DNA from: Acidobacteriota bacterium | GTDB taxonomy: Bacteria; Acidobacteriota; Vicinamibacteria; Vicinamibacterales; UBA2999 | Reading direction: 5' to 3' | Assembly: GCA_016184455.1 (NCBI GenBank) | Contig: JACPCS010000104.1 | Span: 13,608 to 77,607, forward strand | Length of the DNA: 64,000 nt | Part shown: positions 854 to 9,737 of the stretch, one piece after another | Layout: every line of letters begins with the position of its first letter | How positions within the stretch are numbered: position 1 is the first letter of the stretch | Position numbers and translations under genes: made by a program | Notes under the pieces: model-generated | What the model saw: the letters and a program-made list of their open reading frames with translations, nothing else | Told to the model about the DNA's origin: nothing | Database searches by the model: none

Positions 854-1672
854 ATGGCGTCACAGGCTCCCAAGCTGCTCGACCGCGTGCGCGAGGCGAT
901 TCGTACCCGCCATTACAGCCGGCGGACCGAAGAGGCCTACGTCTACTGGATCCGCCGCTACATCCTCTTCCATCGCAAGACACATCCCTCCCAAATGGGC
1001 GTCACGGAAATCTCGCGGTTTCTGACGTTTCTCGCGGTCGACCAACACGTCAGCGCCTCCACACAGAATCAAGCACTCAGTGCGCTGCTGTTTCTCTATA
1101 AACACGTGTTGGCGATGTCCATCGGCGACATTCCACCGGTTGTGCGGGCGCGTACGCCGGAACGGTTGCCGGTAGTGCTCAACCGAGACGAGGTCGGCGC
1201 GCTCCTCAAGCAGCTCACCGGCACGGAGCGGCTGGTGGTGATGCTGCTCTACGGCGCCGGGCTCCGTCTCGAAGAATGTCTCGAGCTTCGGGTCAAGGAT
1301 CTCGACTTCGATCGCCAGCAGATCGTCGTGCGGCAAGGGAAGGGCCGGAAGGATCGGGTGACGATGCTGCCGGCGGCGGCGAGGGAGGCGCTGAACGCGC
1401 ACCTGGCGCGGGTGCGTCAGATGCATGAAGTCGATGTGGCGCGAGGGTTAGGGCGGGTCGTCCTGCCCTTCGCGGTGGCTCGGAAGTATTCGAATGCGGC
1501 CACTGAGTGGCGGTGGCAATTCGTGTTTCCGGCAGCGCGCATCTGTCGGGATCCGCGATGGGGTGCGCCGTCGCGGTATCGCCTGCACGAGTCGGTGATC
1601 CAGAAGGCCGTGGCCGGCGCAGCGCGGCAGGTCGGCCTCACGAAACGGGTTGGCCCACACACGATGCGTCAC
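854..1672 (+). pseudogene. intI: Integron integrase IntI, 3'-truncated by RIT insertion
   Basis: Starts MASQAPKLLDRVREAIRTRHYSRRTEEAYVYWIRRYILFH. The IntI hallmark extra domain is present (LPFAVARKYSNAATEWRWQFVFPAARICRDPRWGAPSRYRLHES). Homology stops at GPHTMRH (Box II). The Box II tail and the catalytic Tyr are missing. The 653-2017 ORF reads through into the RIT end. Confidence 0.85.
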
Positions 1673-1696
1673 TATGCCGCGTCCCGGACTATGCCG
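1667..1696. repeat. RIT-2 terminal repeat CGTCACTATGCCGCGTCCCGGACTATGCCG
   Basis: 25/30 identical to the RIT-1 IR (2998-3027). Its inner 12-mer CGGACTATGCCG (1685-1696) has a perfect inverted copy CGGCATAGTCCG at 1768-1779, just downstream of the ritC stop. This is the same architecture as RIT-1. Confidence 0.7.
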
Positions 1697-1783
1697 CGTC
1701 GTCGCGGGAGAATTAGACCCGGACCACGTGATGGTGGTGATTTCGGAATGGCGCTGGATCAAGGACTCGGCATAGTCCGAGGC

Positions 1784-2785
1784 TTACAACGCCTGCAGGA
1801 ACGCCAGCAGGCGATCATCGGGCCGGTAACGACCCGGCGACACGGCGTTCGCCGGAGTGGTCTTGGCCAACGCCTGTTCTTTGAGCACGAGGTCGGCGTC
1901 GAGGTACATCTGCGTGGTGTCGATGGATTCGTGCCCCAGCCAGAGTGCGATGACGGATCGATCCACTCCCGCTTGCAGCAGTTCCATCGCCGCCGAATGT
2001 CGCAGGACATGCGGTGAAACCTGCTTCTGCGTGAGCGACGGACAGTGCCGTTGGGCCGTGGCGACGTGTTTCCTCACCAGATACTGCACGCCGTCCGCAC
2101 TGAGCTGGCGTCCTCGCACGTTGGGAAACACCATGTCGCCGCTGCCGCGCCCGGGCTCCTGCAACCACGTCTTGAGCGCCTGCACGGCCTGCTTGGTGAG
2201 CGGGGTGCATCGCTCCTTGCGCCCTTTGCCGACGCAGCGGACATGCGCGCCGGTGCCCAGGGCGACATCCTCGCGACGGAGACTGGTCATCTCCGACAGT
2301 CGCAAGCCCGTTTGCACCGCGACCAGGAGGAAGACGTGGTCGCGCCGGCCCATCCACGTGTGTCGGTCAGGTGCCGCCAACACGGCGTTGATTTCCGGTT
2401 TCGTCAGGAAGCCCACCAGCTTCTTCTCGTACCGCTTACTCGGCATCGCCAGCACGCGTTGGATGAGCCCAGACTGGGCGGGGTCTTCGAACGCCGCGTA
2501 GCGGAAGAATGACCGGATGGCGGTCAGACGCAGATTGCGGCTTCGGGCGCTATTGCCACGGCGTGTCTCTAGCCCGTCGAGGAAGGCGCCGATCAACGCG
2601 GGATCGAGATCCGCGAGCGCCAGCGCGGACGGCGATTTGTGCAGCCGCTGGCCGGCAAACTGCAGCAGCAAACGAAACGTGTCCCGGTAGGACGCGATGG
2701 TATGCGGACTGGCTTGGCGCTGCGCCGTCAGCCGTTGCGTAAAGAACCGCTCCAACAAGGTCGAGAAGCTGAGGTCAGTCTTCAT
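1784..2785 (-). CDS. ritC: Tyrosine recombinase RitC (RIT element 2)
   Basis: 333 aa, colinear with ritC-1 (MKTDLSFSTLLERFFTQRLTAQRQASPHTIASYRDTF vs MIAASFQSLLQGFFTDRLLRQRQASPHTIAGYRDTF). Catalytic blocks are present: GLRLSE, GKGRKER, HVLRHS, LGHESIDTTQMY. It overlaps the ritB-2 stop by 11 nt. Confidence 0.85.
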   Translation of the reverse strand: MKTDLSFSTLLERFFTQRLTAQRQASPHTIASYRDTFRLLLQFAGQRLHKSPSALALADLDPALIGAFLDGLETRRGNSARSRNLRLTAIRSFFRYAAFEDPAQSGLIQRVLAMPSKRYEKKLVGFLTKPEINAVLAAPDRHTWMGRRDHVFLLVAVQTGLRLSEMTSLRREDVALGTGAHVRCVGKGRKERCTPLTKQAVQALKTWLQEPGRGSGDMVFPNVRGRQLSADGVQYLVRKHVATAQRHCPSLTQKQVSPHVLRHSAAMELLQAGVDRSVIALWLGHESIDTTQMYLDADLVLKEQALAKTTPANAVSPGRYRPDDRLLAFLQAL

Positions 2786-2975
2786 GTGTGAGCCCCCATC
2801 GTCGTTCCAGCCGGCTGGTGGCCAGTCGCATCAGCTCCGGATGCATCGACAAATACCAGTAGGTATCGGCGACATGCGCATGGCCGAGAAAGGTGGACAA
2901 CACGGGCAATCGCCGTTCGATGTCCTCATGGGCGCGATACCACTGAATCAGTGTGTTGACGGCGAATCGATGCCG
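2775..2975 (-). pseudogene. ritB: ritB (RIT element 2), C-terminal fragment
   Basis: Encodes RHRFAVNTLIQWYRAHEDIERRLPVLSTFLGHAHVADTYWYLSMHPELMRLATSRLE, which matches the ritB-1 C-terminus (RHRFAAQTLIAWYRAGVDVERELPKLSTYLGHVHTADTYWYLEAIPELL). Confidence 0.8.
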
Positions 2976-2976
2976 C

Positions 2977-2996
2977 TTATGCCGGATCCGGCATAA
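2977..2996. repeat. Perfect 20-bp palindrome TTATGCCGGATCCGGCATAA at the ritC-side junction of RIT-1
   Basis: Self-complementary on direct reading. It consists of two inverted copies of the TTATGCCGG sub-motif found in the RIT ends. Confidence 0.9.
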
Positions 2997-2997
2997 T

Positions 2998-3027
2998 CGG
3001 CAGCATGCCGGGTCCCGGATTATGCCG
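2998..3027. repeat. RIT-1 inverted repeat (ritC side) CGGCAGCATGCCGGGTCCCGGATTATGCCG
   Basis: Its exact reverse complement is at 5947-5976. A further CCGGCATAAT copy lies at 3089-3098, overlapping the ritC stop. Confidence 0.9.
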
Positions 3028-3097
3028 CGGGTTGCCATGTTGCTTGAGAGAAATCCCGATGGATCCCGTGAATGCGATGGCTGTCGACCCGGCATAA

Positions 3098-4093
3098 TCA
3101 CAAGCTCTCCAAGAAGCGCAGCAGCTGGTCCTCGGGCCGATAGCGAGAGGGTTTAACGCCGAGCGGCTCCACGCGTGACAGCGCCTGCTCCTTCAAGCGC
3201 AGGTCCGCGTGCAGATACATCTGGGTCGTTTCGACGGACTCATGGCCCAGCCAGAGCGCGATCACGGATTGGTCGACTCCATGGGCACGCAGCCTCATCG
3301 CGGACGAATGTCGAAGCACATGAGGACTGACCGTCTTCTGTTTCAAGGAGGGACAGGCGTGTTGGGCGCGCTCTGCGTGACGGGCGACGAGTTCTTCGAC
3401 CGCATCGCGACTGAGCGGCCGACCGCGAATGCTGAGAAACACGCGCTCACTCTGCGCCGGCAGATCCTGTCGCAGCCAGGTCTGCAGAACGGCGGCCGTG
3501 TCGCAGCCGAGCGGAGTGCAACGCTGTTTCCGCCCCTTGCCCTCGCACCGCACGTGTGCGCCAGTGCCCAGGACCACGTCCTCGCGCCGGAGGCCGATCA
3601 ATTCCGAGACGCGCAGACCCGTCTGGAACGCGACGGCCAGGAGGGTTCGGTCGCGCCGGCCGATCCACGTCGACCGATCGGGAGCGGCGAGGACGGCGGT
3701 GATCTCCGCGTCGTCGAGAAACGCGATGGGTTTGCGCTGGTGGCGTTTGCTGGGCATGGCGAGGACCTGTTGGCACAGCAAGGCGTGCGCCGGTTCGGCG
3801 AGCGCGACATACCGAAAGAACGAGTGAATCGCGGCCAGACGCGCATTGCGGGTCCGACTGGTGTTGCCGCGCCGCTGCTCCAGATGCTCGAGAAACCTCC
3901 CGACGAACGCGGGCGCGAAATCCTCCGTTTTCAACAGGAAGGGGGCCTTGCCCAGCTGGTCGGCGGCGAAGCGCAGGAGCAGCCGAAAGGTATCGCGATA
4001 GCCGGCGATTGTATGCGGGCTCGCCTGCCGCTGTCGGAGTAAGCGGTCGGTGAAGAAGCCCTGCAAGAGCGATTGAAAACTCGCGGCGATCAT
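3098..4093 (-). CDS. ritC: Tyrosine recombinase RitC (RIT element 1)
   Basis: 331 aa from ATG 4093, in an ATGA overlap with the ritB stop. Catalytic blocks are present: GLRVSE, GKGRKQR, HVLRHS, LGHESVETTQMY. The longer 3098-4390 ORF is an upstream run-on. Confidence 0.85.
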   Translation of the reverse strand: MIAASFQSLLQGFFTDRLLRQRQASPHTIAGYRDTFRLLLRFAADQLGKAPFLLKTEDFAPAFVGRFLEHLEQRRGNTSRTRNARLAAIHSFFRYVALAEPAHALLCQQVLAMPSKRHQRKPIAFLDDAEITAVLAAPDRSTWIGRRDRTLLAVAFQTGLRVSELIGLRREDVVLGTGAHVRCEGKGRKQRCTPLGCDTAAVLQTWLRQDLPAQSERVFLSIRGRPLSRDAVEELVARHAERAQHACPSLKQKTVSPHVLRHSSAMRLRAHGVDQSVIALWLGHESVETTQMYLHADLRLKEQALSRVEPLGVKPSRYRPEDQLLRFLESL

Positions 4094-5037
4094 GGCGTGA
4101 CCTCCGGTGGGGTCGGCGTCAGGCGCTCCGCCGCGAGCTGCAGCAGCTCGGGAATCGCTTCGAGATACCAGTATGTGTCGGCGGTGTGTACGTGCCCGAG
4201 ATACGTCGACAGTTTTGGGAGCTCGCGCTCCACATCGACGCCGGCCCGGTACCACGCGATCAAGGTCTGAGCCGCGAATCGATGCCGTAGGTCCTGAATG
4301 CGTGGCCCGCGCCCGTGGCGGCCCCCGCTGGTCGGTGGCCGCAACCCGACCGTGCGGGAGACGACCGCGAAGGTGTACCGCGTGATCCATTCCGTGATAC
4401 GAGTGCGTCGTTCCGACACGAAGAAGGCCGGGGTCACCGGCCGGGGCACCATCTGATCTCTCGCCTCGCCGTACGCCCGCAACGCCTCCTGCGTCGTGGG
4501 GTGGATCGGGACCAGTCGAGACTTCCCGAATTTCGTCCGCCGAATCAGGAGCACGCCCGCTTCAAGGTCGACATCCGATCGATCGAGATGGAGCGCTTCG
4601 TTGATCCGCAGGCCGGTCACCGCCAGGAGTCCAAACAGCGTGGCATAGGTACGCCCCCGGAGTTTCTTGACGGACGGGAGGGCGGCGGCGCTCTGGATCA
4701 GGCGGACGACGTCCTGATCGCGATAGAGCCGTGGCGGTTTCCGACGGTACCGCTGACCGACCAAGTCCGCGGGCGGCACCTCGGTGCGCGGATCAGATGC
4801 GCGGCGCCACACGGCGAAGCGGCGCGCGATGCTCAAGCGCCCGGCCCACGTGCTGGGCTGAGCGTCGGTGGGTTGAAGCGCCCATTGGCGTGCCAGATCG
4901 ATGGTGATGAACGGACTGCCCACCTGATCCACATACGCCACGAAGGTTCGGAGGAGACTCGCCGGCAGGCGGTCGACAAACGCCAGGGCGCGGCGCATGG
5001 CGAGGTACTGGGTGAGGGCGTCGGAGAGGTCGCTCAT
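4090..5037 (-). CDS. ritB: Tyrosine recombinase RitB (RIT element 1)
   Basis: 315 aa from ATG 5037, in an ATGA overlap with the ritA stop. Catalytic blocks are present: TGLRINE, KFGKSRLVP, DLRHRF, LGHVHTADTYWY. Confidence 0.85.
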   Translation of the reverse strand: MSDLSDALTQYLAMRRALAFVDRLPASLLRTFVAYVDQVGSPFITIDLARQWALQPTDAQPSTWAGRLSIARRFAVWRRASDPRTEVPPADLVGQRYRRKPPRLYRDQDVVRLIQSAAALPSVKKLRGRTYATLFGLLAVTGLRINEALHLDRSDVDLEAGVLLIRRTKFGKSRLVPIHPTTQEALRAYGEARDQMVPRPVTPAFFVSERRTRITEWITRYTFAVVSRTVGLRPPTSGGRHGRGPRIQDLRHRFAAQTLIAWYRAGVDVERELPKLSTYLGHVHTADTYWYLEAIPELLQLAAERLTPTPPEVTP

Positions 5038-5830
5038 TGCGCACCTCCCATCAGGGGCCACGGTTGGGCGAGCGCGCGCAATCCCGCGAGATCCACCTTG
5101 GCGTAAATCTCCGTGGTCTGCACGGCACGATGCCGCAGCACGAGGCCGATCTCCGGCAGCGAGGCACCCTGACGCAGCATGCGGGTCGCGAGACTGTGTC
5201 GGAGCAGGTGGGCGCCTTTGAGCGAGGGCGACAGGCCGGCCCGCGCCAGCGCCCGTCGCACGATCGTGCTCACTGTGCTCGGATGGCCGGGACTCATCGT
5301 GTGCGCATGACGGATCACAAACGTCGTGATCGTCGACACGTCGAGCGCTCGCAAATCCAGCGGGCCGTCGCCGAACCGATCGGTGAGAAACCACCGCAAC
5401 ACCTCGCTATAGTTCGTCACCGTGGATGGTGCGAGGCCCCGCTCGGCCCTCAGGTGCTGCTCGTAGTGTCGCTGCAGCTGGCTCAAGGGAGATTCGTCGA
5501 TGCTCGGTGCGGGTGAAGCGACCACACCTCGCGCTCGGAGATGGGTGAGAAATTGATGGAGCGTCGCCGCATGGCCCCGGTGCAACCGTCCGCGGCGCTT
5601 GCGGTCGTTGACAAACGTGCCGACCAACTCGTCATTCAGCTCGTGAATGCCGCATCCACGACGAGTCAGCCACTGGCTGAAGTGCCCGAGCAGGGTGAGC
5701 TGTCACGAATCGTCGTGGCGGCGTACTCGCACTGGGCGAGATGCGTCGCGAACGAGTCGAGCTGCGAGCCGATGCCCCCTGATCGCAGCCACCGAACCGT
5801 GTCGCGATTCTCGATGAAGTGATCCAGCAT
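5034..5830 (-). pseudogene. ritA: ritA (RIT element 1): frameshifted and internally deleted
   Basis: ATG at 5830 is preceded by GGAGGAG. The product starts MLDHFIENRDTVRWLRSGGIGSQLDSFATHLAQCEYAATTIRD. The frame then shifts near 5705 to QLTLLGHFSQWLTRRGC... The span length is not a multiple of 3. After the N-terminal domain the sequence jumps from HTMSPG straight to STIVRRALARAGL..HLLRHS..EIYAKV, so the Arg-I and Lys blocks are missing. Confidence 0.7.
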
Positions 5831-5946
5831 GTCTCCTCCGTTCCCGGCCAAAGAGCCGTGCGGAAGAAGACAGCCGGATTATGCCGACTTGGCAAGGACC
5901 AACTCTGACCGTACAGGCACGGAAGAGCCATCTCCCACGCTGAACC

Positions 5947-5976
5947 CGGCATAATCCGGGACCCGGCATGCTGCCG
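5947..5976. repeat. RIT-1 inverted repeat (ritA side)
   Basis: CGGCATAATCCGGGACCCGGCATGCTGCCG is the exact reverse complement of 2998-3027. A subterminal CCGGATTATGCCG copy lies at 5874-5886. Confidence 0.9.
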
Positions 5977-6590
5977 AAAATCATGAATCCGCGGACCCGT
6001 GTGGTCGGTTGGGCCCCGCAAACCAGTCCGACGCGACAGGTCGTAGAACGTCCGGTGCACGGCGGAGATCTCCAGACGTCGCCCACGATCGGTGAGGAGA
6101 AAGGCCGGTGAGGTGGGATGCGGCACCACGCGGTCCCGCCGTCCGGCATACGCGATGAAGACCTCCTGCGTGGAGGCATGGAGCGGAATCAGTCGCATCT
6201 TGTTGAATTTGGTCTTGCGGATCGTGAGCAGCCCGTCGTGGAGATTCACATCGTGTCGGTCCAAGCTGATCGCCTCGCTAATACGGATCCCACTCACCAC
6301 GAGCAATCCGAAGAGGCAGTGGTACGTCCACGGGCGAAGGCCGTTGGTGGACGACAGCGCGTTCGTGGCCGCAAGCAATTGGCGAATCTCCTCGTCGGTG
6401 TAGAGATACGGGCGGGCGCGTCGCGCGCGAAACGGGAGCAGACCGGCCGCTGGAATTTCGGTGCGCGGATCGGTCGCGCTCCAATGGCGCGCGAACACAC
6501 GAACGAACCCGAGGCGTTGCGCCCAATCGCTGGGTTGGTGATCCACCGGCTGCATCGCCCAAGGTGCGAGACTACCTAGTGTCACGGGAG
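5977..6590 (-). pseudogene. ritB: ritB (RIT element 2), central/N-terminal fragment; its 5' end is deleted
   Basis: VTLGSLAPWAMQPVDHQPSDWAQRLGFVRVFARHW...SGIRISE...KFNKMRLIP...GPRIHDF is colinear with ritB-1 residues ~45-255. About the first 40 codons are absent. The 5632-6672 ORF is a chimeric read-through. Confidence 0.75.
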
Positions 6591-6857
6591 CACCCCGTCG
6601 GAAGCGCCAAGGCGCGGTTCTTCGCACAGCTCGGGTTCGACCAGCGAAACTGGATGGTCTTGCGAGACGCACTGCACGGCTTCGCTAGCCAGGACGCCCA
6701 GCTCGGCCCTGCGACTCGATTTGGACAGAAATACCTGGCGCACGCTACGATCACAGGACCGTCTGGACGAGCCGCCCGCATGGTGGTCGTCTGGATCATC
6801 CTCCACGGTGAAGACTTTCCGCGGTTCGTCACGGCGTATCCGGGAGCGACTGCATGA
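6564..6857 (+). CDS. DUF6883-like protein (cassette 1), probably 5'-truncated
   Basis: (V)RDYLVSREHPVGSAKARFFAQLGFDQRNW...GQKYLAHATITGPSGRAARMVVVWI...PRFVTAYP fits the DUF6883 pattern. The usual ~15 N-terminal residues are absent. It starts at a GTG directly at the RIT-2 deletion junction. Confidence 0.6.
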   Translation: MRDYLVSREHPVGSAKARFFAQLGFDQRNWMVLRDALHGFASQDAQLGPATRFGQKYLAHATITGPSGRAARMVVVWIILHGEDFPRFVTAYPGATA

Positions 6858-7102
6858 CGACGACCTTCCGAGAACTCGACACGGTCGTGCTCGTCCGGGA
6901 CCTGCCGGAGGCTGGACTTCGGAGCGGCGACCTTGGGGCCGTCGTCCAGGTGTATGGGGACGAGGCGCTCGAAGTCGAGTTCGTCACGGCATCCGGGCGT
7001 ACGCAGGCTCTCTTGACTCTGCCGATGGGCGACGTGCGGCCGGTACGCGACGACGACCTGCTTGCTGTCCGGACTTCCCCGCCCGTGCGAGGTGCGGCAT
7101 AA
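6854..7102 (+). CDS. DUF4926 domain protein (cassette 1)
   Basis: FRELDTVVLVRDLPEAGLRSGDLGAVVQVYGDEALEVEFVTASGRT matches the DUF4926 pattern. It has an ATGA overlap with the upstream gene. Its stop codon lies inside the R'' box of attC-1. Confidence 0.7.
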   Translation: MTTTFRELDTVVLVRDLPEAGLRSGDLGAVVQVYGDEALEVEFVTASGRTQALLTLPMGDVRPVRDDDLLAVRTSPPVRGAA

Positions 7103-7180
7103 CATCGGCTTGGAGCCGACGCGCCTGCCGTCCTGTACGATCATGTCACCGCGGCACGCGGCTCAAGCCGCACGTTGGGC
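7097..7180 (+). repeat. attC-1
   Basis: R''-like GCATAAC at 7097-7103. L'' TTGGAGCCGACGCGCC pairs imperfectly with L' GGCACGCGGCTCAAGCC. R' GTTGGGC at 7174-7180. Confidence 0.75.
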
Positions 7181-7342
7181 CGACACGAAGCACGACCGCA
7201 CGACCAAAACGATCAGGCCGAAGCCGCGATTGAAAGCCCGTTGCGGTACTGAGGCGGGCGTGCACACGGGCGCCAGACCTGCGGTGCTGCGGCGGCCGCG
7301 ATTGACCGGCTTCATCGGAAGCGACGTGTTATCCTGCACTTC

Positions 7343-7564
7343 ATGCGGCCGGTTGATGCCTTCTACGAGAATGGCCTGCTTCGGCCAGTGTCGGAGTTGC
7401 CGCTCCGGTCGGGCGAGCGTGTTCGCGTCATCGTCGTCCGAAGGGCGGACGCCAGCCGGTGGGATTCCGCGAAGCTCGCGGCCCATCCCGACGACGATCT
7501 CGCTCTGGCGGAAGCCGGTCTCGACGAGTGGGCGGCCGCCCTTGAGCGAGAGGACCGGGGGTGA
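7343..7564 (+). CDS. DUF104-family antitoxin (cassette 2)
   Basis: MRPVDAFYENGLLRPVSELPLRSGERVRVIV is the typical DUF104 / AF2212-like N-terminus. It has a GTGA overlap with the downstream MazF gene. Confidence 0.7.
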   Translation: MRPVDAFYENGLLRPVSELPLRSGERVRVIVVRRADASRWDSAKLAAHPDDDLALAEAGLDEWAAALEREDRG

Positions 7565-7920
7565 AGCGTGGCGAAATCTGGTGGGCCGATCTTGGGCCCT
7601 ACCGTATCGGCGAACAGACCGGTCGGCGTCCGGTCATCGTCTGGCAAAGCGACACGCTGACCAGGCTACTCCAATCAGTCCTGGTTGTTCCCCTCACTAC
7701 GAATCTGGATCGGGCGAAGCTCGCAGGCACCGCCCTCGTCTCCGCTTCCGACGGCGGTCTGACCTCAGAGTCCGTGGCCATGGCGTTTCAGATGCGCGCG
7801 ATCCCCAAGGAACGCCTCAAGACGCGGATTCGTTCACTGTCGGCCGACGAACTCGCCGAATTGGAACTGGCGACTGACGAAGCGGTCGGCCGAGTCGAAC
7901 CGGAAACCGAGCTGGACTAG
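7561..7920 (+). CDS. mazF: MazF/PemK-family type II toxin endoribonuclease (cassette 2)
   Basis: KRGEIWWADLGPYRIGEQTGRRPVIVWQSD...VLVVPLTTN...SVAMAFQMRAIPKERL matches the MazF/PemK signature. Confidence 0.8.
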   Translation: MKRGEIWWADLGPYRIGEQTGRRPVIVWQSDTLTRLLQSVLVVPLTTNLDRAKLAGTALVSASDGGLTSESVAMAFQMRAIPKERLKTRIRSLSADELAELELATDEAVGRVEPETELD

Positions 7921-7932
7921 CGGCGACGGACG

Positions 7933-8002
7933 GCCCAACACGCGAATGGAGCCGACGCGCCGCTGAATCGTAACGGCGCGCGGCTCATTCGCAACCGGAT
8001 AC
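7933..8002 (+). repeat. attC-2 with a degenerate R' box
   Basis: R'' GCCCAAC at 7933-7939. L'' GAATGGAGCCGACGCGCC pairs with L' GGCGCGCGGCTCATTC. At the position where the other sites carry GTTRRRY it reads CGGATAC (7996-8002). Confidence 0.65.
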
Positions 8003-8109
8003 AAGCATGCGCGACCTTTGGTACGCAGACAACCGGGGCGCGTCATACCCTTCAGGTCCTGTACTATCAACCCACCGAGTGGGCTGACCTCGAAATCGAC
8101 GGCGAGCAC

Positions 8110-8871
8110 GTGCCACTGCCTGAGAGCGTCCTGCGGCATTTCCGGCAAGCTACGGCGATTTGCAGTCTTCAGTGTCCAGCAAGAGTAGAAGTGGTTCAGG
8201 ACCGATTCGTTGACCGCACCGCCTACCTCGAAATCGTTCAACAACGAATCCGAGCCCGCACGGAATCACCCGGCATTGTCTTTCTCGATCCCGATACAGG
8301 TCTTGAGCCAGGAACACCTGGCCTCGAACACGTACTGGGCTCGGAACTCGCAGCAATCTGGGACGTGATGCCAGAAGGCGACTTGCTGGTCTTCTATCAG
8401 CACCAGACCAACAGAAACAATAATCCCTGGGTTGAGCCGAAGAAGGCGCAGTTCGAACGCGCGCTCAACCTGCCGGTGGGCACAGCAAGACTCGCGCGCG
8501 CCCAGCGAATCGCCTCCGATGTAGCTTTCTTCTTCGCTCAAAAGAGGGGGCAGCGTGTGCCGAGGCGCTCGGTCGAACAGGCGCCTCGCAATCTCAAGGT
8601 GACCTCCGCCTTGCAGGAAGTTCTCGACTGCCTCAACCGGACCAGAACTCGCGCGACCTATGGTGCCGTGGCCGAAGTCATCGGAGGCTTGGCTCGGGGG
8701 GTTGGTCAGCGTTTGGGTGCTCGCCGTCCAGAAGCCTCATGGATTGTCAGCGGCGCGTCCGGGCTCCCGTCCGGTTACGCACCTCGCGAAATGCACCCAG
8801 ACTTGGGTGGGTCACCCTTGGTGCGCACGGGGGCTGAGTTGCGTGCGCTGCTCAAACGACGAACCGGCTAA
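8110..8871 (+). CDS. Cassette 3 protein: unknown N-terminal domain fused to an MGMT/ATL-like DNA-binding domain that has no active-site Cys
   Basis: The N-terminal half contains IVFLDPDTGLEP...LLVFYQHQ, a family I cannot name. The C-terminal TYGAVAEVIGGLARGVGQRLG...ASWIVSGASGLPSGY resembles the MGMT DNA_binding_1 fold with PCHR replaced. The frame is open from 7921 and the 8110 start is a GTG. An ATG at 8006, right after attC-2, is in another frame, so a 5' frameshift is possible. Confidence 0.55.
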   Translation: MPLPESVLRHFRQATAICSLQCPARVEVVQDRFVDRTAYLEIVQQRIRARTESPGIVFLDPDTGLEPGTPGLEHVLGSELAAIWDVMPEGDLLVFYQHQTNRNNNPWVEPKKAQFERALNLPVGTARLARAQRIASDVAFFFAQKRGQRVPRRSVEQAPRNLKVTSALQEVLDCLNRTRTRATYGAVAEVIGGLARGVGQRLGARRPEASWIVSGASGLPSGYAPREMHPDLGGSPLVRTGAELRALLKRRTG

Positions 8872-8950
8872 CCTCCAAATGGAGCCGACGCGCCCAACGG
8901 TCTGTGCGATCATGTCGCCGCGGCGCGCGGCTCATTTGCAACGTCTAGGC
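8866..8950 (+). repeat. attC-3
   Basis: R'' GGCTAAC at 8866-8872 contains the TAA stop. L'' CAAATGGAGCCGACGCGCC pairs with L' GGCGCGCGGCTCATTTG. R'-like GTCTAGGC at 8943-8950. Confidence 0.7.
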
Positions 8951-8982
8951 AGCGGCGAATTCACGATCCGGGAGGGAGCAAC

Positions 8983-9639
8983 ATGCGTTATTTCATCGGA
9001 ATCATGCTCGGCGTCGTCCTGATCGCGCCGTTCGCGCTGGCGCAGCAGCCCCGTCGCTATGAATACCTGGCTCAGGCAACCCAGCGCATCATCGCGGCTT
9101 CGGAGGCTACGGCTGATCCGACACCAGCCGCCGTGGAGACAGCGGCGGCGGCGGGGTGTGGCGCGCTGGGACGCCTCCTTGAAGATTCTGCTTTTCGGGC
9201 CGACCTTGACCGACTCTCCAAGATGCCAAGATCCGTTCGCGAGCGCGCTGAGCTTAAGCGGGATCTTTCGCTCTTCATTTCTGCCTTCATGCGCTGGGAA
9301 CAGAAGACCCTGCAGGACGCTGGGCTCGATGCCAGGTCATCCGAGTCGGTGTTGTGGGCTGTCGTATCCCTTCGCACTGCGGCCGACAGAGACCTTAGCC
9401 CAGACGATGTGATGGGGGGAATTCGATCTCTCCGCATGGAATTGTGCGGGGCTGCGAAAGAGGCCCAAGCCGCGCGAACGGGCCAAGAACGACGGAGAAT
9501 GCTCGCCACATGGGGCGCCAGAATCGGAGGCGCTCTGGTGATAGCGGCGAACGGCGCATTCGCTAGCCCGTCCGGCGGTTTCGCATTGGCGTCAGTCGGC
9601 ATCGGAGCGGGAGTCATGGGCATCAGTTTCAATCAATGA
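8983..9639 (+). CDS. Cassette 4: secreted or membrane-anchored protein of unknown function
   Basis: A GGGAGGGAG Shine-Dalgarno sequence precedes the ATG. The signal peptide is MRYFIGIMLGVVLIAPFALAQQ. The C-terminal tail IGGALVIAANGAFASPSGGFALASVGIGAGVMGI is Gly/Ala-rich and hydrophobic. I recognise no family. Confidence 0.6.
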   Translation: MRYFIGIMLGVVLIAPFALAQQPRRYEYLAQATQRIIAASEATADPTPAAVETAAAAGCGALGRLLEDSAFRADLDRLSKMPRSVRERAELKRDLSLFISAFMRWEQKTLQDAGLDARSSESVLWAVVSLRTAADRDLSPDDVMGGIRSLRMELCGAAKEAQAARTGQERRRMLATWGARIGGALVIAANGAFASPSGGFALASVGIGAGVMGISFNQ

Positions 9640-9664
9640 TTCGTTCTTCAAGAAGTGCCGGCGC

Positions 9665-9737
9665 TGCCAACACGCGTTGCACCAGACGGCCGCTGGTGCG
9701 ATCCTACGCGGCCGCGGGTGAACGCTGGCCGTTGCCG
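9665..9737 (+). repeat. attC-4
   Basis: R'' TGCCAAC at 9665-9671. GCGTTGCACCAGACGGCCGC pairs imperfectly with GCGGCCGCGGGTGAACGC. R' GTTGCCG at 9731-9737. Confidence 0.7.

What the first reader, a model, noticed from the sequence alone, without database searches (positions are those of the whole stretch)
1667..6590. A complete RIT element sits inside a second RIT element that has itself disrupted the integron integrase
RIT-1 (2976-5976) carries ritA, ritB and ritC with 4-nt ATGA overlaps. It is bounded by perfect 30-bp inverted repeats (2998-3027 and 5947-5976). Removing exactly these 3001 bp rejoins two halves of another ritB in frame: ..GPRIHDF|RHRFAVNTLIQWY.., compared with ritB-1 GPRIQDLRHRFAAQTLIAWY. 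That second element (RIT-2) keeps an intact ritC and a 25/30-related terminal repeat, which abuts codon 271 of intI. RIT-2 has lost ritA, the 5' end of ritB and its outer end. The result is three layers of tyrosine-recombinase-based elements stacked in 6 kb.
Basis: partly seen in the sequence, partly recalled or inferred. Interest (0 to 1): 0.7.

Follow-up and report, generated by a model that had tools for sequence, protein, structure and literature searches.

The report
Recombinase-hunting RIT elements nested in integron integrase
Two small mobile elements of the known "recombinase in trio" (RIT) kind are stacked inside an integron integrase gene, and comparison with about 150 related loci suggests why: this RIT lineage inserts at the two codons (Arg-His) of the catalytic motif that tyrosine recombinase genes share.

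Summary
RIT-1 is a 3001-bp insert (2976-5976) with perfect 30-nt inverted repeats. It interrupts ritB of a second RIT (RIT-2), and RIT-2 interrupts an integron integrase gene after codon 273. Metagenome contigs 100% identical to the flanks carry the uninterrupted ritB-2, so an empty site exists.

Corrections:
- RIT-1 is not complete. Its ritA has a 1-nt frameshift and a 453-nt internal deletion.
- RIT-2 ends at 6563, not 6590, where it is fused to a 5'-truncated DUF6883 cassette gene.

The main new result is that both insertions sit at the same place, the R-H codons of the H-x-L-R-H box II motif.
- 39 distinct junctions from loci found by the repeat sequence show this position.
- 56 of 62 loci found by RitB similarity show it on at least one side.
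- Finished plasmid pHG1 shows it.
- The closest intI relative shows it: intI is 91% identical, but the RIT inside it is only 67% identical, so that insertion was independent.

The nesting follows from site-specific targeting. I infer integration of a circle (IR-palindrome-IR) by crossover in a roughly 5-6-nt CGNCAY core. These are new members of a known kind. I did not find the target rule in the literature I could read.

The parts
854..1672 (+). intI, the N-terminal 273 codons of an integron integrase, cut after ..GPHTMRH
   Evidence: TIGR02249 335.5 bits (cut-off 265), profile positions 1-266 of 315. Pfam Phage_int_SAM_4 plus Phage_integrase profile positions 3-139 of 172. The intact 87% homologue P0003 continues ..HTMRHSFATALLEDGYDIRT.
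1667..1672 (+). Crossover hexamer X (CGTCAC). It is codons R272-H273 of intI and also the outermost 6 nt of the RIT-2 repeat.
   Evidence: Sequence read directly. The same CACACGATG-CGTCAC-TATGCCG junction occurs in L174 with a different RIT.
1667..1698 (.). RIT-2 terminal inverted repeat on the ritC side, containing two GGAYTATGCCG-type sub-sites
   Evidence: 27 of 32 positions match the RIT-1 repeat (D12). Sub-site at 1686-1696.
1768..1778 (-). Inner third sub-site of the RIT-2 end (GGACTATGCCG, inverted)
   Evidence: The same layout occurs at both RIT-1 ends (3090-3100, 5876-5886).
1784..2785 (-). ritC-2, intact, 333 aa
   Evidence: Pfam Phage_integrase 7e-34. 66% identity to pHG1 RitC. 97% identity to RitC in L037.
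2775..2975 (-). ritB-2, 3' part (RHRFAVNTLIQWY.. to the stop codon)
   Evidence: Contiguous with the 5' part in the empty-site contigs L002-L004.
2976..2997 (.). 22-nt palindrome (minus strand ATTATGCCGGATCCGGCATAAG) carried by RIT-1, lying between its repeat and the C-terminal half of the target
   Evidence: (I8). Absent from the empty site. An equivalent palindrome lies next to the RH.. half of the target in 16+ other junctions.
2998..3027 (.). RIT-1 inverted repeat, ritC side
   Evidence: Perfect match to 5947-5976, 0 expected by chance.
3098..4093 (-). ritC-1, intact, 331 aa
   Evidence: 56% identity to pHG1 RitC.
4090..5037 (-). ritB-1, intact, 315 aa (box II reads QDLRH)
   Evidence: 49% identity to pHG1 RitB over the full length. 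89-92% identity to L006-L009.
5034..5830 (-). ritA-1 pseudogene, with a 1-nt deletion near 5704 and a 453-nt internal deletion at about 5285
   Evidence: Pfam joins SAM_1 positions 3-52 directly to Phage_integrase positions 101-169. Alignment to intact ritA of L009. Blast gaps of 450-453 nt against L006-L009.
5947..5976 (.). RIT-1 inverted repeat, ritA side. Its outer CGGCA (5976-5972) is repeated at 2975-2971.
5977..6563 (-). ritB-2, 5' part, lacking its first ~51 codons
   Evidence: Nucleotide homology to ritB of L094-L096 starts at 6563/6561. Intact RitB of L094 has 51 more N-terminal residues.
6564..6857 (+). DUF6883 cassette gene, 5'-truncated. The deletion junction with RIT-2 is at 6563|6564.
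   Evidence: Pfam PF21814 profile positions 16-109 of 110 from residue 2..
7093..7183 (+). First of three attC-like repeats (the others start at ~7934 and ~8866) of a cassette array on the same strand as intI
   Evidence: Repeat families D3, D4, D7. Sequence read. The R' box GTTGGGC of site 1 complements the R'' box GCCCAAC of site 2.

Best explanation
Window 1667-6563 is the product of two successive site-specific integrations by RIT elements, followed by decay.

Inferred order of events:
1. RIT-2 integrated into the integron integrase gene at the codons for R272-H273 of the box II motif H-x-L-R-H.
2. RIT-1 integrated into the equivalent R-H codons of ritB-2.
3. At some point RIT-1 lost ritA function (a frameshift plus a 453-nt deletion).
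4. At some point one deletion removed the ritA side of RIT-2 together with the intI 3' end, attI and the start of the first cassette. The order of steps 3 and 4 is unknown.

The nesting occurs because this RIT lineage recognises the DNA that encodes the conserved H-x-L-R-H motif of tyrosine recombinase genes. Integron integrases, other recombinases and the rit genes of resident RITs are therefore all targets.

Proposed mechanism (inferred, not shown):
- The element excises as a circle in which the two 30-nt inverted repeats are separated by one ~22-nt palindrome.
- Next to the palindrome lies a 5-7-nt sequence X (CGNCAY).
- The Rit recombinases exchange strands between X and the CGNCAY of the target.
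- After integration the N-terminal half of the target abuts a bare repeat. The palindrome ends up next to the RH.. half of the target.
- Because the joined ends are symmetric, either orientation is possible.
- The exchange is conservative, so excision would restore the target reading frame.
For: Shown for this locus:
- An empty site with a single CGGCA exists.
- L002 carries the uninterrupted ritB-2 and continues across the RIT-2/intI junction, so RIT-2 was in intI before RIT-1 arrived.
- Both junctions fall at R-H codons.

Shown by comparison with other loci:
- Four 88-92% relatives of RIT-1 sit in different recombinase genes at the same codons. One of them has an AGA Arg codon replacing the first 3 nt of the repeat.
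- Among 82 loci sharing the repeat core, there are 23 distinct N-half and 16 distinct C-half recombinase junctions.
- All 8 N-halves tested end at Pfam Phage_integrase profile position 133-134. Six of 9 C-halves start at position 133.
- In an independent set chosen by RitB-2 similarity, 56 of 62 elements with detectable repeats have a box II flank on at least one side, and 25 have both halves.
- Removing the RIT rebuilds full-length IntI in L119, L134 and L135 (463-469 bits on TIGR02249).
- The closest intI relative (L174) is cut at the identical nucleotide and in the same orientation by a different RIT. intI is 91% identical at nucleotide level, the RIT 67%. L174 also shows the predicted IR-X'-palindrome-X-RHSFAT.. 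structure on the far side.
- Seven of the top 60 IntI homologue clusters read from ..RH (..RQ in P0027) into at least four distinct RIT repeat sequences.
- In finished plasmid pHG1, an inner RIT sits in ritC of an outer RIT at ..PHTLRH|.

Support for the circle model:
- Five metagenome contigs carry the predicted repeat-X'-palindrome-X-repeat junction.
- L177 reads ritC, then the junction, then ritA and ritB.
- X' and X differ in L176 and L177, which argues against a palindromic assembly fold-back.
Against: - No experiment has been done. According to a 2023 review table, RIT transposition has never been reproduced in the laboratory (PMC10214605).
- Nearly all comparison loci are metagenome assemblies. 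Repeated elements are prone to chimeric flanks in such assemblies. Contigs with two N-halves or two C-halves (L007, L070, L107) may be chimeras or real rearrangements.
- The filled RIT-1/ritB-2 junction is seen only in the window.
- The head-to-tail junctions could be tandem copies and not circles.
- CGNCAY alone is far too short to explain the specificity, and I could not identify what else is recognised.
- L062 and L071 carry the same 30-nt repeat but sit in an IstB-type Walker A site. The repeat plus X therefore does not determine the target.
Confidence: 0.85

Rival explanations
1. Assembly artefact. The nesting is a chimeric join of separate RIT copies made by a short-read assembler that collapsed similar repeats.
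For: The window probably comes from a metagenome-assembled genome. The RIT-1 genes and the filled-junction ORF were not found by exact look-up. Logan contigs L001 and L005 break exactly at 2975. Chimeric-looking contigs exist among the relatives (L040, L081).
Against: Both window junctions obey to the nucleotide the rule seen in dozens of other loci: N-half|X|repeat on one side and repeat|X'|palindrome|X|C-half on the other. The two halves of ritB-2 are exactly contiguous in the empty-site contigs. RIT-1 and RIT-2 share only 25 of 30 repeat positions and 53-62% protein identity, too little for a k-mer collapse.
Confidence: 0.04
2. The insertions are not targeted. RITs insert more or less at random, and the two hits in recombinase genes are coincidence or the result of homologous recombination between rit genes.
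For: Published RIT insertions are in unrelated genes: radC, an IS66 tnpA and a Tn6049 transposase (PMC2864759, PMC3414803).
Against: There are 39 distinct junctions in one set, and 56 of 62 loci in an independent set, all at one codon pair and at one Pfam profile position. L174 shows an independent hit at the same nucleotide of a 91%-identical intI. Other lineages are equally precise at other motifs: the IS66 junctions rejoin into one colinear Pfam match, and the ArdC-like halves end at profile position 54 and start at 53. That also fits the published IS66 case.
Confidence: 0.03
3. The insertions act as reversible switches. Integration and excision are conservative and restore the frame, so a RIT in intI (or in another RIT) could turn the recombinase off and on, to the benefit of the host or the element.
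For: The empty site keeps the reading frame exactly. Removing the RIT rebuilds full IntI in L119, L134, L135 and L174. Head-to-tail junction contigs suggest that excision happens. RIT-disrupted intI is common in this clade.
Against: There is no evidence of regulation. In the window the arrangement is dead: ritA-1 is broken, and RIT-2 has lost one end along with the intI 3' end. Simple parasitism with a safe-haven target explains the same data.
Confidence: 0.08

Closest known systems
RIT (recombinase in trio) elements of Cupriavidus metallidurans CH34 and C. necator pHG1 (Van Houdt 2009, 2012; Ricker 2013)
   Same: - The gene order ritA-ritB-ritC with ATGA overlaps.
- About 30-nt terminal inverted repeats with an overlapping palindrome at one end (PMC3414803 describes a 28-29 bp repeat plus a palindrome).
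- Class-wise protein similarity of 40-66%.
- pHG1 also holds a RIT within a RIT within an IS66 gene.
   Different: - Here the hosts are uncultured soil Acidobacteria-like genomes.
- One target is an integron integrase.
- RIT-1 has a degraded ritA.
- The literature I could read treats RIT target specificity and empty sites as untested (PMC10214605) and calls the pHG1 arrangement a maze or 'complex combinations' without explaining it.
Tn554 family, GInts and strand-biased circularizing elements (multi-tyrosine-recombinase transposons)
   Same: - Several tyrosine recombinases act together.
- Integration into a specific gene site is orientation-defined (Tn554 has its preferred att554 site).
- No classical target duplication.
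- A ~6-bp core can be carried from the previous site (PMC10214605). The variable X hexamers seen here resemble this.
   Different: - Tn554 has no terminal inverted repeats and uses TnpC. GInts and SEs have a fourth protein.
- RITs have three recombinases, long inverted repeats and a palindrome.
- The RIT target is a protein-motif coding sequence shared by a whole superfamily, not one locus.
Elements that home to conserved motif-coding DNA or to integrons (inteins, homing endonucleases, group II introns; IS1111-attC insertion sequences)
   Same: The target is a sequence kept constant by selection on a protein motif or on a recombination site. It is therefore present in many hosts and often on mobile DNA. 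This comparison is an analogy from general knowledge, not a tested relationship.
   Different: The enzymology is entirely different. RIT insertion inactivates the gene instead of being spliced out. IS1111-attC elements hit attC sites, not intI.

Membership tests
RIT element | Three adjacent tyrosine recombinase genes in the order ritA (~410 aa), ritB (~315 aa), ritC (~330 aa) | tested here: met
   RIT-1 has ritA (pseudogene), ritB (315 aa) and ritC (331 aa). Relatives L006-L009 have intact 415-416-aa RitA. RIT-2 keeps only part of ritB plus ritC.
RIT element | Short overlaps (ATGA) between successive rit genes | tested here: met
   ATGA at 5037-5034, at 4093-4090, and at the ritB-2/ritC-2 overlap (ritC-2 starts at 2785, ritB-2 ends at 2775).
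RIT element | Each protein belongs to the RitA, RitB or RitC family respectively | tested here: met
   BLASTP against the published pHG1 trio: A to A 40-41%, B to B 44-53%, C to C 56-66%, and cross-class 23-31%. No phylogeny was built. NCBIfam has no Rit model, and the Xer models score below their cut-offs.
RIT element | Terminal inverted repeats of about 28-34 bp, with a palindrome overlapping one end | tested here: met
   Perfect 30-nt repeat plus a 22-nt palindrome for RIT-1. One repeat is left for RIT-2.
RIT element | RitA with two core-binding domains; RitC with an extra C-terminal helix (PMC8138268) | not tested
   Sequence lengths and the conserved RYRPxDxLLxFLxxL tail of RitC-1 and RitC-2 are compatible with this. 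No structure was predicted.
RIT element | Moves as a unit | tested here: met
   Empty site at 100% flank identity. Near-identical family members occur in different target genes. The evidence is comparative, not experimental.
Integron | Integron-type integrase (IntI with its specific extra segment) | tested here: met
   TIGR02249 335.5 bits against a cut-off of 265, although the gene is truncated at profile position 266 of 315.
Integron | Array of gene cassettes bounded by attC sites | tested here: inconclusive
   Three related ~70-90-nt repeats follow small ORFs on the + strand. Site 1 has recognisable R''/R' boxes. The R' boxes of sites 2 and 3 are degenerate. No attC model was run.
Integron | attI site next to intI | tested here: not met
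   The region between the intI 3' end and the first cassette is missing. The RIT-2 remnant is fused to a truncated DUF6883 gene at 6563/6564. In L174 this region is present downstream of intI.

The most novel reading that the evidence does not exclude
RIT elements are site-specific parasites of other mobile-element genes.
- The lineage in this window homes to the R-H codons of the catalytic box II of tyrosine recombinase genes. It therefore disrupts integron integrases, assorted integrases and other RITs, which produces the nests.
- Sister lineages with the same repeat core home with equal precision to other motif-coding sites: IS66 transposase DNNxxER, the HExxH of an ArdC-like metallopeptidase, and the Walker A sites of IstB- and AAA_25-type ATPases.
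- Target class largely follows RitB lineage: the nearest RitB neighbour shares the target class in 24 of 29 cases.
- RIT insertion would then be a recurrent route to intI inactivation in soil bacteria.
- The system would be a naturally retargetable tyrosine-recombinase integrase.

The probability given is that the targeting rule is both real and not already described in the literature. I could not read Ricker et al. 2013.
Probability: 0.55. Interest if true: 0.75.

Novelty: new member of a known kind. Interest (0 to 1): 0.6.

Why it matters
- RITs are widespread, but their mobility, target choice and intermediates are listed as untested (PMC10214605). This locus and its relatives supply an empty site, a precise target rule and candidate circle junctions. 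Together these make a defined integration assay possible: a mini-RIT, RitABC, and a 40-bp box II target.
- The rule explains the long-noted tangles of rit genes, such as those on pHG1.
- It points to RIT insertion as a recurrent cause of integron integrase inactivation. Seven of the 60 closest IntI homologue clusters are cut this way. This bears on how chromosomal cassette arrays become frozen.

Tried and rejected
- Exact-protein look-ups for RitC-1 (two start codons), RitB-1, the RitA-1 fragment and the 108-aa junction ORF found nothing. The filled junction therefore has no independent support.
- Choosing the longest open frame next to each junction picked wrong frames in this GC-rich DNA. 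I replaced it with frames fixed by the R-H codons.
- My first regular expression for the N-half motif had one residue too many and missed all cases. It was corrected.
- Three RitB-type C-halves were too short or too divergent for Pfam on their own.
- NCBIfam has no RIT model.
- Ricker et al. 2013 is not held. Literature searches for recombinase trios found nothing on target choice.
- I considered that the 22-nt palindrome was target-derived. I rejected this because it is absent from the empty site and travels with the element to either end.
- I considered that the head-to-tail contigs were palindromic assembly fold-backs. This is unlikely for L176 and L177, where X' is not the complement of X. 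Tandem copies remain possible.
- No similarity to the CGNCAY site was seen at the 6563/6564 deletion junction, so I do not attribute that deletion to Rit activity.


Full report
**What is in the sequence**

On the minus strand between 6563 and 1667 lie, in order:
- a ritB-like gene without its start (6563-5977);
- a 3001-bp insert (5976-2976);
- the rest of that ritB (2975-2775);
- an intact ritC (2785-1784), overlapping the ritB end by ATGA;
- a terminal repeat (1698-1667) that runs into a truncated integron integrase gene on the plus strand (854-1672).

The insert is bounded by a perfect 30-nt inverted repeat (2998-3027 / 5947-5976), with no such match expected in shuffled sequence. It carries ritC-1 (4093-3098), ritB-1 (5037-4090) and a damaged ritA-1 (5830-5034), with ATGA overlaps.

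Removing 2976-5976 rejoins ritB-2 in frame. The product is colinear with RitB-1 across the joint (53% identity over 262 aa). RitC-1 and RitC-2 are 62% identical.

The integrase fragment is an integron integrase. It scores 335.5 bits on TIGR02249 against a cut-off of 265 and stops at profile position 266 of 315.

**Corrections to the finding**

RIT-1 is not complete. Pfam joins the first part of the RitA SAM-like domain directly to the last 70 positions of the catalytic domain. Four relatives with 88-92% nucleotide identity carry about 450 more bases there. Aligned to the intact 416-aa RitA of L009, the window copy has a 1-nt deletion near 5704 and a 453-nt in-frame deletion at about 5285.

The left repeat is not at the edge of the insert. 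A 22-nt palindrome (2976-2997) separates it from the target.

The RIT-2 remnant ends at 6563. Nucleotide homology to ritB of L094-L096 begins there, and intact RitB has 51 more N-terminal residues. From 6564 onward there is a DUF6883 gene that lacks about 15 N-terminal profile positions.

One deletion therefore removed the ritA side of RIT-2 together with the intI 3' end, attI and the start of the first cassette.

**An empty site exists**

The exact RitC-2 protein occurs on short Logan contigs from runs SRR12113419-33. Three of them (L002-L004) are 100% identical to window 6116..5972 joined directly to 2975..1474, with the two matches overlapping by the 5 nt CGGCA.

So RIT-1 is a recent, polymorphic 3001-bp insertion with CGGCA at both junctions. 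L002 runs on across the RIT-2/intI junction, so RIT-2 was in intI before RIT-1 arrived.

**Both insertions are at the same codons**

- intI is cut after ..H-T-M-R-H.
- ritB-2 is cut at ..H-D-F|R-H-R-F.

These are the R-H codons of the box II motif shared by tyrosine recombinases. I tested whether this is a rule, in five ways.

*First test: relatives of RIT-1.* Loci found through RitB-1 sit in other recombinase genes at the same place.
- L006 has repeat-palindrome-CGGCAC ACG.. , which reads RHTVITELAEMGV...
- L007 is flanked by two different RitB-like C-halves.
- L008 follows GPRLHDL-AGA with the repeat. The target's AGA Arg codon replaces the first three bases of the repeat.

*Second test: loci sharing the repeat core.* Scanning one genome per species for the 23-nt repeat core gave 82 loci from more than ten phyla.
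- Their flanks contain 23 distinct N-halves ending ..H-x-L/F-R-H next to a bare repeat.
- They contain 16 distinct C-halves beginning R-H-(S/T)-(F/Y)-A next to a palindrome.
- All 8 N-halves tested end at Pfam Phage_integrase profile position 133-134.
- Six of 9 C-halves start at position 133.

*Third test: an independent set.* A set of 80 loci was chosen only by RitB-2 similarity.
- 62 elements had detectable repeats.
- 56 of those have a box II flank on at least one side, and 25 have both halves.
- In those 25, the palindrome is on the ritA side in 16 and on the ritC side in 9.
- Deleting the element rebuilds full-length integron integrases in L119, L134 and L135 (463-469 bits on TIGR02249).

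*Fourth test: the closest intI homologue.* This is P0001 (90% identity at protein level). It reads from ..PHTMRH into a RIT repeat.
- Its contig (L174) shows intI N-half, CGTCAC, repeat, then a complete ritC-ritB-ritA. After that come repeat, GTGGCG, the 22-nt palindrome, CGTCAC, and RHSFATALLEDGYDIRT.. to the stop.
- The intI parts are 91% identical at nucleotide level, but the RITs only 67% (RitC 65%). These are therefore independent insertions at the same nucleotide and in the same orientation.
- Seven of the 60 best IntI homologue clusters read from ..RH (..RQ in P0027) into at least four distinct repeat sequences. These include the RIT-1 type (QHAGFRIMPG) and the RIT-2 type (YAASRTMP).
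- P0003 (87% identity) is an intact counterpart.

*Fifth test: a finished plasmid.* In pHG1 of Cupriavidus necator, an inner RIT interrupts ritC of an outer RIT at ..PHTLRH|. The outer RIT abuts an IS66-type transposase fragment. The literature describes this region as a maze of recombinase genes and notes RITs that inactivate IS66 tnpA and radC (PMC2864759, PMC3414803).

**Mechanism**

The comparative anatomy is shown. The reaction itself is inferred.

Every integrated copy has this form:

[target N-half][X][repeat ... repeat][X'][palindrome][X][target C-half]

X is a 5-7-nt CGNCAY.

Each end carries two outer GGAYTATGCCG-type sub-sites and an inverted third one 60-90 nt inside. About 400-bp gene-less derivatives keep just these ends.

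The hexamer beside the palindrome on the flank side often differs from the element's own X at the Arg wobble base. It is therefore target-derived. X can also carry the AGA of a former target. This resembles the coupling sequences of Tn554-like elements (PMC10214605).

In the window, the exchange must lie within the shared CGGCA. Position 6 is G (from the element) at the ritA-side junction and T (from the target) at the other.

This fits a circle whose joined ends read repeat-X'-palindrome-X-repeat and which recombines conservatively with the target.

A metagenome scan for that junction found five contigs:
- L177 reads ritC 3' end, junction, ritA, ritB.
- L179 is a whole 3.47-kb element that ends in the junction.
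- In L176 and L177, X' is not the complement of X, which argues against an assembly fold-back.
- Tandem copies cannot be excluded.

What recognises the target beyond the hexamer is unknown. L062 and L071 have the same 30-nt repeat but sit in an IstB-type Walker A site.

**Family membership**

The defining RIT features are met (details in the membership table):
- gene order and sizes;
- ATGA overlaps;
- repeats plus a palindrome;
- class-wise similarity to the published pHG1 trio: 40-66% within class and 23-31% across classes;
- movement as a unit.

The two-CB-domain RitA and the extra RitC helix (PMC8138268) were not tested.

The integron is supported by IntI and by three attC-like repeats on the same strand. 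attI is gone.

**Novelty**

RITs are known, and tangled or truncated RIT combinations have been reported. This locus is a new member of a known kind.

In the literature I could read, I did not find:
- the rule that this lineage integrates at recombinase R-H codons;
- an empty site;
- intI as a recurrent target.

A 2023 comparison lists RIT target specificity, empty site and movement as not tested (PMC10214605). I could not read Ricker et al. 2013, so prior description cannot be excluded.

**Caveats**

- Almost all comparison data are metagenome assemblies.
- Contigs with two like halves (L007, L070, L107) may be chimeras. They may instead be products of recombination between oppositely inserted copies, as the finished pHG1 sequence suggests is possible.
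- The filled RIT-1 junction is seen only in the window.

Noticed in passing
window 854-9700; L174 8001-13458: intI and the cassette ORFs and attC-like repeats are on the same strand, with the array downstream of the intI 3' end. This is the 'inverted integrase' layout, not the usual divergent one. The same layout is seen in the 91%-identical relative L174, so it is not an effect of the RITs.
   Followed up: partly
window 6564-7920: The first cassettes are a DUF6883/DUF4926 gene pair (Pfam). They are followed by what looks, by eye, like a small antitoxin plus a MazF/PemK-type toxin pair (7343-7564, 7561-7920). The second pair was not checked with a tool.
   Followed up: no
L014, L020, L060, L066, L024, L039, L072, L077: RITs with the same 23-nt repeat core sit in the HExxH codons of an ArdC-like zincin metallopeptidase. 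The one N-half tested (L014) ends ..LLHELGH at Pfam MPTase-PolyVal profile position 54. The one C-half tested (L039) starts VHWTGHPSRLNR at position 53.
   Followed up: partly
L073, L081, L086, L089, L034, L042, L025, L041, L049, L083 and pHG1 (L093 ~4650): Another lineage sits in IS66-family transposase genes between ..DNNxA and ERxLR... The rejoined L073 flanks match DDE_Tnp_IS66 profile positions 225-283 colinearly. This agrees with the published CH34 RIT that inactivates an IS66 tnpA.
   Followed up: partly
L044, L061; L062, L071; L065; L035, L055, L068, L085: Further apparent target classes, read by eye only: the Walker A GKS site of an AAA_25-like gene, an IstB-type GVGK(T/S)HL site, an IS481-like ..LLRWHRRLVA site, and a ..YRGINV site that may be an ArdC N-domain.
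   Followed up: no
L032 3416-3819, L052 1749-2065, L063 6716-7112, L064 321-725, L067 1608-2004: Gene-less mini-elements of 317-405 bp consist of the two RIT ends with their three sub-sites each. L063 and L067 lie between the N- and C-halves of a recombinase gene. They look like MITE-type derivatives mobilised in trans, which would also allow the ritA-defective RIT-1 to move.
   Followed up: partly
L175-L179 (JGI metagenome contigs): Head-to-tail RIT junctions (repeat-X'-palindrome-X-repeat). These are candidates for excised circles or tandem copies.
   Followed up: partly
L093 (pHG1 NC_005241, 128344-137677): The inner RIT is flanked on both sides by inverted N-halves of ritC, each followed outward by ritB and ritA of the outer element. 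This points to a deletion or inversion between two oppositely invaded copies. L070 has two N-halves; L007 and L107 have two C-halves.
   Followed up: partly
window 4290-4310 (RitB-1 box II): RitB-1 and its relatives read Q-D-L-R-H where RitB-2 and most others read H-D-(L/F)-R-H. The glutamine is conserved in the RIT-1 family and in the IS66-targeting lineage, so it is probably tolerated.
   Followed up: partly
P0001, P0002, P0004, P0027, P0034, P0043, P0044: Seven of the 60 closest IntI homologue clusters are annotated proteins that are in fact intI-RIT read-through fusions. They could mislead integrase counts in soil metagenomes.
   Followed up: partly
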